Below the pieces are notes generated by a model that was not told the DNA's origin, did no database searches, and was given only the letters and a program-made list of their open reading frames with translations. Below, piece by piece: positions 3,201 to 3,943 of a DNA stretch of 64,000 nucleotides (position 1 is its first letter; the number at the start of each line of letters is the position of its first letter). This DNA is from Aplysia californica (lineage: Eukaryota): positions 803,278 through 867,277 of the forward strand of contig NW_004797367.1 of NCBI RefSeq assembly GCF_000002075.1, written 5' to 3'. A program made the translations under genes and the position numbers.

Positions 3201-3943
3201 AAGATCAGAGGTGTGGCTGAAAGACAGCAGTAAGAATTAGCCAAGGATTAGCATTAGAAAGGCTGCAGTAAGAGTCAGGAGCCCAGTGGATGGGACAAAG
3301 GAGGTGAGGGGTGGGGGCAGAAAGTGAAGTCAAAGCATACGACAGAACATTGTTAGAGAGCAGGAAAGGAGGGGAAATAACATTTCAGAAAAGAAAATTG
3401 ACCGTCACTATCCCGATTCAAACCTGGGACCTACTAAATGAGAGGCGAACACAGTGACCTCTCGACCACGAGAGCTCCCTCAGTGGTGTCTCAGGTGTTA
3501 AAACGCTAGGGTCTGATGTATTTGTATGTGTGTTCACCTGCAAGTCTGTCAACCGTGGGTGGTTGGCGGGTGTTCTGGTGTGGTTTGCTCCTTGTTTCCT
3601 ATCAAATATCTATCGTCCTTAGCTCTCCTTCTTCTTATTTATGTTTGTTACTCTCTTGTAACACCTCTAATCTTCTGGCGCTCATATGACCTTATGAAGT
3701 TGCGAGCGCCGTAAAACCTCTACTAAAACTAAACTAAGTCTGTCAACCTGTCTGTCTGTGTGTTTGTATGTGAATGAAAATAACTTTTAGTGTTGGTGTC
3801 TGTACGTTCTCATCGACACAATTTAGATCATTTTGCATTAAGGCCTTGACTCTGCCTGTCAGGGCCAGCTCGGGCAAAGAGGGATACAACGACCTAGCAG
3901 AAAAACCCACAGTTGAATTTCTCTCTTTTAAGAAATAGACAGA

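What the first reader, a model, noticed from the sequence alone, without database searches (positions are those of the whole stretch)
3555..3735. Abundant ~175 bp retroposon with a fixed 5' end but no tRNA/Pol III head (family A)
Seen: about 19 copies in 64 kb. Several have 11-13 bp TSDs (3555, 8342, 36249, 39198, 40863, 59442, 62073) and a CTAAA/CAAAA-type tail, and intact copies start at the same point, (G)TGGGTGGTTGGCGGGTGCTCTGG. I see no A/B boxes, and the sense strand has T runs that would terminate Pol III. Established: variable TSDs plus a simple-repeat tail indicate target-primed reverse transcription by a LINE, and random 5' truncation would not give a fixed start. Inference: an internally deleted (bipartite) LINE derivative, or a short retroposon class whose 5' end is set by an internal Pol II promoter or RNA self-cleavage.
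Basis: partly seen in the sequence, partly recalled or inferred. Interest (0 to 1): 0.7.

Follow-up and report, generated by a model that had tools for sequence, protein, structure and literature searches.

The report
Headless SINE riding a Nimb-type LINE
A 180-base jumping element with roughly a hundred thousand copies in this mollusc genome ends in the same hairpin as a resident LINE retrotransposon and mostly starts at the same base, yet lacks the tRNA-like front end of ordinary SINEs; its short front end likely acts as its own promoter, which is untested.

Summary
The window has 19 copies, and all 7 claimed target-site duplications are there. In samples not chosen for full length, 76 of 112 copies start at consensus base 1-4. 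The genome holds 14,282 exact copies of the 21-base head. There is no B box, and the consensus has a T6 run. The last 52 bases match an I-group (likely Nimb) LINE family of the same genome at 51 of 52, so mobilisation by that LINE is well supported. The simple 'bipartite LINE' reading was not borne out. The head matches none of three I-group LINE 5' UTRs, and no longer element continues from the 5' part. The element is a mosaic: a private 31-base head, a 77-base CT-rich body shared with a second non-tRNA family (B), a linker, and a swappable tail (two subfamilies, one head). What fixes the start is unresolved. An internal Pol II promoter is my best guess. Processing from host intron RNA, guided by head-tail pairing, is the bolder alternative. 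Non-tRNA SINE heads have precedent (mollusc LP-SINEs, bird GC-rich heads), and the family may already sit in Repbase/Dfam, which I could not search. Verdict: new variant of a known kind, interest 0.4.

The parts
3542..3554 (+). left target-site duplication, 13 bp
3555..3585 (+). private G/T-rich head (consensus 1-31); identical in both subfamily consensuses; two-tier G-quadruplex potential in the first 18 bases; bases 1-21 can pair flush with the end of the tail; DPE-like 4-of-5 match at +28 (motif recalled)
   Evidence: function inferred
3586..3662 (+). CT-rich body (consensus 32-108) shared with sister family B, 65 identities over a 79-column alignment
   Evidence: score 87, shuffle max 45, 0 of 500
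3663..3675 (+). short A-specific linker; weak likeness to a stretch inside family C
   Evidence: p=0.008, one of 7 comparisons
3676..3723 (+). LINE-type 3' hairpin and terminal unique bases; 51 of 52 identical to LINE family Z
3724..3735 (+). short (CTAAAA)n-type repeat tail
3736..3748 (+). right target-site duplication, 13 bp
8341..8515 (+). full copy, subfamily A2, 13 bp TSD
15380..15514 (-). copy with intact head, 3' end lost
26405..26520 (-). 5'-truncated copy (from consensus 61)
27950..28125 (-). copy from consensus 14
35570..35740 (-). full copy, A2
36250..36429 (-). full copy, A2, 11 bp TSD
37330..37517 (-). full old copy, A2
39198..39380 (-). full copy, A1, 11 bp exact TSD
40295..40475 (-). 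full copy, A2
40860..41038 (-). full copy, A1, 12 bp TSD with one mismatch
46555..46748 (-). full old copy, A2, 12 bp TSD with one mismatch
47090..47259 (-). full copy, A2
53605..53756 (-). 5'-truncated copy (from consensus 31)
56640..56730 (-). decayed fragment
59438..59616 (-). full copy, A2, 12 bp TSD with one mismatch
60785..60950 (-). near-full copy, A2
62070..62254 (-). full copy, A1, 12 bp exact TSD
62345..62473 (-). old copy with intact head, tail lost
39822..40225 (-). sister family B copy (non-tRNA, about 400 bp, shares body and tail with A); a second, decayed copy near 27295-27700
54048..54560 (+). sister family C copy (tRNA-like head with B box, about 515 bp, same tail); further copies at 2974-3479 (-) and 58601-58852 (-)

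Best explanation
Family A is a composite, non-coding 180-base retroposon that ends in the 3' hairpin of a resident I-group (likely Nimb-clade) LINE and is likely copied by that LINE's reverse transcriptase, with its own 31-base head likely serving as an internal Pol II promoter that fixes the start. Shown: TSDs, a dominant start, tail identity with LINE family Z, a body shared with family B, and two tail subfamilies under one head. Inferred: (1) the LINE protein binds the hairpin and primes at the (CTAAAA)n repeat; (2) template switching assembled head, body and tail and later swapped the tail (older A2, younger A1); (3) the start signal lies inside the element, since it survived the change of source copies and no upstream sequence travels with it; (4) the polymerase is Pol II, because there is no B box and a T6 run.
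For: Tail 51 of 52 identical to Z, 48 of 52 to the young intact family X. X and Y encode endonuclease, RT and RNase H. The outer hairpin stem differs between A1 and A2 by two paired changes, 126/153 and 129/150. 67 of 88 young copies have a TSD within 3 bases of the start. Ten young copies without an adjacent TSD, including 3 of the 7 with a more distant repeat, were read in full; none showed sequence carried in from another locus. No common upstream sequence in 30 exact-head loci or thousands of public contigs. Consensus bases 1-35 are the same in A1 and A2. [quoted passage not shown] Mollusc SINEs with proposed Pol II heads exist (PMC4758252 section 10). Weak: 4-of-5 DPE-like match at +28 (consensus recalled).
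Against: No transcription start was seen: three polyA RNA-seq runs of one study carry the element abundantly but inside host transcripts, with no place where many molecules begin. The head has no match to the sampled LINE 5' ends, so the promoter has no demonstrated source. Head conservation between subfamilies is not significant on its own (0 changes in 35 against about 5 in the next 88). The DPE-like match is short and could be chance. No LINE with the A2 tail was found. The Nimb label is inferred; one search gave no clade names.
Confidence: 0.45

Rival explanations
1. It is a bipartite or LP-type derivative of an I-group LINE whose parent is extinct or was not sampled: head and CT-rich body are an old LINE 5' UTR.
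For: The X, Y and Z 5' UTRs have a CT-rich block. A 1-90 aligns weakly to the Y 5' UTR (p=0.018 and 0.038; X p=0.10). Family B, which shares A's body, begins like the LINE 5' end (p=0.033 vs X, 0.175 vs Y). One internally deleted Z copy exists (L207). The A2 partner LINE is missing, so extinct families are plausible.
Against: Stricter scoring gave no score above the shuffle maximum, and profile searches found nothing in the UTRs. 30 of 30 examined sites among 94 did not continue into a longer element. By eye the head does not resemble the published LP head. Kojima 2018 lists only RTE, Ingi, Vingi and R2 as makers of ORF-less bipartite elements.
Confidence: 0.2
2. The element has no promoter. 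Its RNA would be cut out of host pre-mRNA or read-through transcripts, with the 5' end set by a structure (head-tail panhandle or G-quadruplex) that stops an exonuclease or the reverse transcriptase.
For: Bases 1-21 pair flush from base 1 with the last 20 unique tail bases: -22.7 kcal/mol in A1, p=0.007 (head shuffled) and 0.02 (tail shuffled); the antisense RNA gives only -12.4. G4Hunter 1.5 over the first 18 bases. Copies lie co-oriented with local T>A skew in 122 of 147 loci, and 16 of 16 window copies beyond 26 kb are on one strand. The element is abundant inside host polyA RNA.
Against: Pairing is weaker in A2 (p=0.04-0.12) and not significant when any partner site is allowed (p=0.08 and 0.58). 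A2 folds its head onto the body instead. A G/U-rich head pairs promiscuously. The orientation bias is shared with B (30 of 40) and C (20 of 30), so it is not specific. No 5' carry-over was seen. A hairpin-base truncation hotspot suggested was not seen in the unselected sample.
Confidence: 0.17
3. A few master loci sit behind an upstream (host Pol II or U6-type) promoter, and all other copies are dead processed copies.
For: Two dominant subfamilies with star-like variation. An external promoter would not be copied, which fits the lack of shared upstream sequence.
Against: The same start persisted through a tail swap. Mixed A1/A2 copies occur. The T6 run would stop Pol III. No master locus was identified.
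Confidence: 0.13
4. The head is a degenerate tRNA/Pol III head or a self-cleaving ribozyme.
For: Bases 14-26 resemble the start of family C's tRNA-like head (11 of 13, p=0.25). HDV-like ribozymes set the 5' ends of several LINE clades (PMC5786205).
Against: No A or B box and a T6 run. No HDV-like or hammerhead pattern in my descriptor (run without a positive control). No ribozyme or small-RNA family in Rfam at E<=10.
Confidence: 0.05

Closest known systems
LP-SINEs of gastropods and bivalves (Matetovici et al. 2016, PMC4758252)
   Same: Mollusc SINEs without a small-RNA head, with TSDs, short tandem tails, a CT-rich stretch behind the head, and proposed (untested) Pol II transcription.
   Different: Their head is the first ~70 bases of Nimb-17_LMi/I-3_DR. 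A's 31-base head does not resemble it by eye nor the resident LINE heads. Sister family B is the better LP-like candidate.
Bipartite non-autonomous LINEs (RIME, NARTc, RTE-N, Vingi derivatives; PMC5786205)
   Same: Short, ORF-less, fixed 5' end, LINE 3' end, presumed Pol II.
   Different: The 5' part is not shown to come from the partner's 5' end. The partner is a two-ORF I-group LINE, not RTE, Ingi, Vingi or R2.
Bird SINEs with GC-rich heads of unknown origin (as cited in PMC7245038 and PMC5786205; the original paper was not read)
   Same: Uniform composite units whose head has no known small-RNA source and whose transcription is unexplained.
   Different: They carry bipartite RTE sequence. 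A has a G/T-rich head and an I-group tail.
Mollusc tRNA-SINEs with Nimb-related tails (Meta and V SINEs; PMC11481361, PMC4824008)
   Same: Partner class and 35-61 bp shared tail; tail exchange between families.
   Different: They have tRNA heads and conserved central domains. A has neither; family C in the same window is of this ordinary type.

Membership tests
tRNA-derived SINE (SINE2) | A and B box internal Pol III promoter in a tRNA-like head | tested here: not met
   No B box with up to 2 mismatches in A1 or A2; family C has a perfect one. My A-box patterns also missed C, so only the B-box test is controlled.
tRNA-derived SINE (SINE2) | no Pol III terminator inside the unit | tested here: not met
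   T6 at consensus 81-86 in both subfamilies
5S/7SL/snRNA-headed SINEs | head homologous to 5S, 7SL or U snRNA | tested here: inconclusive
   Rfam found no such match at E<=10 or E<=1, but it also missed the tRNA-like head of family C
SINE in the broad sense (non-autonomous non-LTR retroposon) | variable-length TSDs and simple-repeat tail | tested here: met
   61 of 99 vs 3 of 99 control; 67 of 88 young copies
SINE in the broad sense (non-autonomous non-LTR retroposon) | 3' end shared with a LINE of the same genome | tested here: met
   A1 51 of 52 to family Z; A2 44 of 52 to Z and 42 of 52 to Y
SINE in the broad sense (non-autonomous non-LTR retroposon) | uniform unit with defined 5' end, high copy number | tested here: met
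   76 of 112 start at base 1-4; 14,282 exact heads
Bipartite non-autonomous LINE | 5' part equals the 5' end or 5' UTR of the partner LINE | tested here: not met
   No match to the X, Y or Z 5' UTRs above stricter shuffles; only marginal CT-rich likeness; no longer element continues from the 5' part. Extinct or unsampled parents are not excluded.
LP-SINE | first ~70 bases homologous to the Nimb-17_LMi-type 5' end | tested here: not met
   Compared by eye with the pectinid LP-type heads in supplementary figure S2; computed only against the resident LINE heads
LP-SINE | transcription by Pol II from the head | not testable with these tools
   needs CAGE or a reporter assay; untested for LP-SINEs too
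Ribozyme-headed retroposons (RIME/NARTc, retrozymes) | HDV-like, hammerhead or twister motif at the boundary | tested here: not met
   Rfam and a simple descriptor without positive control; cleavage itself was not assayed
Nimb clade (partner LINE) | RT phylogeny with labelled Nimb references | not tested
   Domain set endonuclease + RT + RNase H and two ORFs place it in the I group; no labelled references were available
Described Repbase/Dfam entry | consensus match to a named repeat | not testable with these tools
   No repeat library offered; three 19-20-base motifs were absent from the paper library; the head, tail and body motifs tried were absent from the 3 searched supplements of PMC4758252

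The most novel reading that the evidence does not exclude
A promoterless SINE. About 10^5 copies arose from RNA excised from host introns and read-through transcripts, with the 5' end set by the element's own head pairing with its tail (or a G-quadruplex). The head is an old inverted copy of the tail. This would be a retroposon class that needs neither a small-RNA promoter, a LINE promoter nor a known ribozyme.
Probability: 0.15. Interest if true: 0.8.

Novelty: new variant of a known kind. Interest (0 to 1): 0.4.

Why it matters
How SINEs without small-RNA heads are transcribed is an acknowledged open point (PMC5786205, PMC4758252). This genome offers three families on one LINE tail: tRNA-headed (C), LINE-head-like (B) and orphan-headed (A). 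An intact relative of the partner LINE (family X) is also present. That makes a direct side-by-side test possible with a 31-base candidate. If the head is a promoter, about 10^5 potential start sites are scattered through the genome. If the RNA is processed from introns, it is a new way for a retroposon to define itself. If the family is already a named Repbase entry, the new content is the anatomy and the partner, not the repeat.

Tried and rejected
Simple bipartite origin from LINE families X, Y, Z: head not found in their 5' UTRs or 3' UTRs. An apparent likeness of A 96-120 to the Y 3' UTR turned out to lie in an internal older tail copy in Y. RNase H-bearing LINEs of other families in the fetched DNA gave no head match. 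Search for a LINE with the A2 tail: 30 of 58 sites examined were A copies or tail-only insertions, none a LINE. Truncation hotspot at the hairpin base: suggested by the pattern-selected set, not seen in 79 unselected copies. 5' transduction: none in the 10 young copies read in full. Rfam: no useful match, and the control family C was also missed. ARAGORN found no tRNA in the window. Run search: no RNA holder listed on record; the raw polyA runs were laid separately. Contig depth was not used as expression. The protein homolog search gave no clade label. The Nimbus paper was not held. Paper searches for this family or for I-clade bipartite elements returned nothing specific; supplementary file 1 of PMC4758252 and subscription papers could not be searched. 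Earlier scan notes by sequence and nearby place were empty.

Full report
Observation. The element at 3555-3735 is real and flanked by a 13 bp duplication. The host genome G000 is 927 Mb. An earlier scan note calls it a sea hare; I did not verify this with a tool. An exact 21-base head occurs 14,282 times, against 2 for the reversed control. Loci not selected for this family gave 71 copies in 807 kb, about 8 x 10^4 if extrapolated; the window's density is higher. The order is 10^5.

The fixed start survives unbiased tests. Of 112 non-redundant copies spanning the A-specific linker (top hits removed, 1 family-B row dropped), 76 start at base 1-4 and 36 are scattered. Anchoring on the second tail type gives 43 of 79. 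Thirty exact-head loci taken in genome order share no upstream sequence, nor do some 4,200 contigs of public run X1 (agreement 0.35-0.36). TSDs of 7 bp or more flank 61 of 99 full copies against 3 of 99 in a swapped-flank control. Among 88 young copies, 67 have the TSD within 3 bases of the start, 14 have none and 7 have a more distant repeat (control 7 of 154). Ten of these 21 were read in full, 3 of them with distant repeats; those were local tandem or nested structures, not sequence carried in from elsewhere.

Partner LINE. An RT search returned intact two-ORF LINEs, families X and Y, with a 1,226-aa ORF2 holding endonuclease, RT and RNase H: I group, likely Nimb (inferred; one search gave no clade labels). 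Sorting all tail matches by upstream sequence exposed an older family Z, about 79% identical to X, whose end matches A1 at 51 of 52 bases including the repeat type. There are two subfamilies: A1 (94.6% to consensus) and A2 (88%), differing mainly in the tail. The outer hairpin stem differs by two paired changes, and Y forms the same hairpin from other bases. No LINE with the A2 tail appeared among 30 of 58 sites examined.

Anatomy. Bases 1-31 are a private G/T-rich head. Bases 32-108 are a CT-rich body shared with family B (score 87, 0 of 500 shuffles). Bases 109-121 are a linker, and 122-179 the LINE tail. Two other families in the window use the same tail. C has a tRNA-like head with a perfect B box. 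B is about 400 bp, has TSDs, starts with a C run, has no B box, and its head loosely resembles the LINE 5' end (p=0.033 vs X, 0.175 vs Y). Full-length fractions are 16 of 30 for B and 17 of 35 for C, starting within the first 5 bases. So A's start is at least as sharp as that of a tRNA-headed family.

Origin of the head. It was compared with the X and Y 5' UTRs, 30 of 326 loci carrying the LINE head motif, the Z 5' UTR preserved in L207, 12 extended Z loci, 20 older Y loci and all fetched DNA with a head-only profile. Every convincing hit was an A copy. With lenient gap costs A 1-90 aligns marginally to the CT-rich part of the Y 5' UTR (p=0.018-0.038), which low complexity and multiple testing can explain. 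A genome-wide pattern for the 5' part not followed by the usual tail start gave 94 sites. The 30 examined were all mutated or tandemised A copies, none continuing into a LINE. A living bipartite parent is therefore not supported; an extinct one is not excluded.

What sets the start. Pol III is unlikely: there is no B box and both consensuses have T6. Rfam shows nothing but also missed family C's head, so it carries little weight. No HDV-like or hammerhead pattern was found (no positive control). The same start persisted across a tail swap, which argues for a signal inside the element. I-factor and related Drosophila LINEs use internal promoters with a downstream element (PMC2377424, passages). 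A has a 4-of-5 match to the recalled DPE consensus at +28, and X/Y have a full match at +28/29. This is weak support. Against it, three polyA runs of one study contain many element reads (19,801 of 14.8 million in X21, on a 601-base stretch holding more than one repeat). These run past the first base into unrelated host sequence, with no shared start; a short non-polyadenylated RNA would be missed. An unexpected feature is that bases 1-21 pair flush with the last 20 unique tail bases, through many G:U pairs: p=0.007-0.02 in A1, 0.04-0.12 in A2, and 0.08/0.58 when any site is allowed. Copies also lie co-oriented with local T>A skew in 122 of 147 loci, as do B (30 of 40) and C (20 of 30). Residual unmasked repeats may add to this skew. 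Together these keep a processing model alive at about 15-17%.

Setting. The 3555 copy lies in sense orientation in an intron of a CUB/EGF gene on the + strand (tolloid-like, inferred). All 16 copies beyond 26 kb are on the minus strand, where a thioredoxin-like exon also lies (E=8e-4, below Pfam's cut-off).

Comparison with what is known. It works like a SINE and meets the broad definition. It fails the tRNA-SINE, bipartite-LINE and LP-SINE membership tests as run. Precedents for non-small-RNA heads are the mollusc LP-SINEs (PMC4758252: passages, section 10 in full, part 1 of 5 of supplement 4, supplement search) and bird SINEs with GC-rich heads of unknown origin (PMC7245038 passages). Kojima 2018 (PMC5786205, parts 1-4 of 5) lists only RTE, Ingi, Vingi and R2 as sources of ORF-less bipartite elements. 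Nimb-tailed mollusc SINEs and tail exchange are known (PMC11481361 and PMC4824008, passages). PMC11203168 (passages) added nothing specific. No paper describing this family came up. Repbase and Dfam could not be searched, and a repeat this abundant may well be listed there.

Verdict. A real, very abundant, headless composite SINE with an identified LINE partner and an unexplained start signal. New variant of a known kind; interest 0.4.

Noticed in passing
window 39822-40225 (-), 27295-27700 (-); L081-L100: Family B: a second non-tRNA retroposon of about 400 bp, with TSDs, a variable C-run start, a head loosely like the resident LINE 5' end, and a strongly folded body (z=-3.9). The best LP-SINE-like candidate here.
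   Followed up: partly
window 2974-3479 (-), 54048-54560 (+), 58601-58852 (-): Family C: tRNA-like head with B box, about 515 bp, same tail; family name not checked.
   Followed up: partly
L062-L065, L061, L066, L068 (5' ends): LINE families X and Y share their first ~40 bases, which by eye can form a pseudoknot (C run with G run, plus a 9-bp stem), with a DPE-like word at +28/29; 326 exact motif sites; no Rfam match. Possible uncharacterised promoter or ribozyme.
   Followed up: partly
L207 (oriented 624-1786): A Z copy that joins the 5' UTR and ORF1 start directly to the last ~450 bases: an internally deleted I-group LINE, seen once.
   Followed up: no
L273-L292, LINE Y 3' UTR: The Y 3' UTR carries an internal, older copy of the X/Z-type tail upstream of its own terminal hairpin.
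   Followed up: no
L013, L029, L097: Tails or whole copies inserted in reverse orientation into other A copies, two of them at the end of the head; such an event could have produced a head complementary to the tail (speculation).
   Followed up: no
L293-L322: Tail-only insertions of about 55 bp with their own TSDs, starting at the hairpin base; not enriched in an unselected sample.
   Followed up: yes
genome-wide and window 26-62 kb: A, B and C are co-oriented with local T>A skew; neighbouring exact heads within 20 kb share a strand in 24 of 31 pairs on contig C1.
   Followed up: partly
window 3666-3699 (+): A1 carries a branch-point-like word followed about 27 bases later by a pyrimidine-rich CAG, a possible cryptic splice acceptor in sense copies (by eye, motif recalled).
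   Followed up: no
window 1-22200 (+); 56331-56651 (-); 59727-60675 (-): Exons of a CUB/EGF (tolloid-like) gene, a thioredoxin-like exon, and a decayed RTE-like LINE fragment (by eye).
   Followed up: partly
L327-L331: A 38-bp tandem array formed from A's body-linker segment.
   Followed up: no
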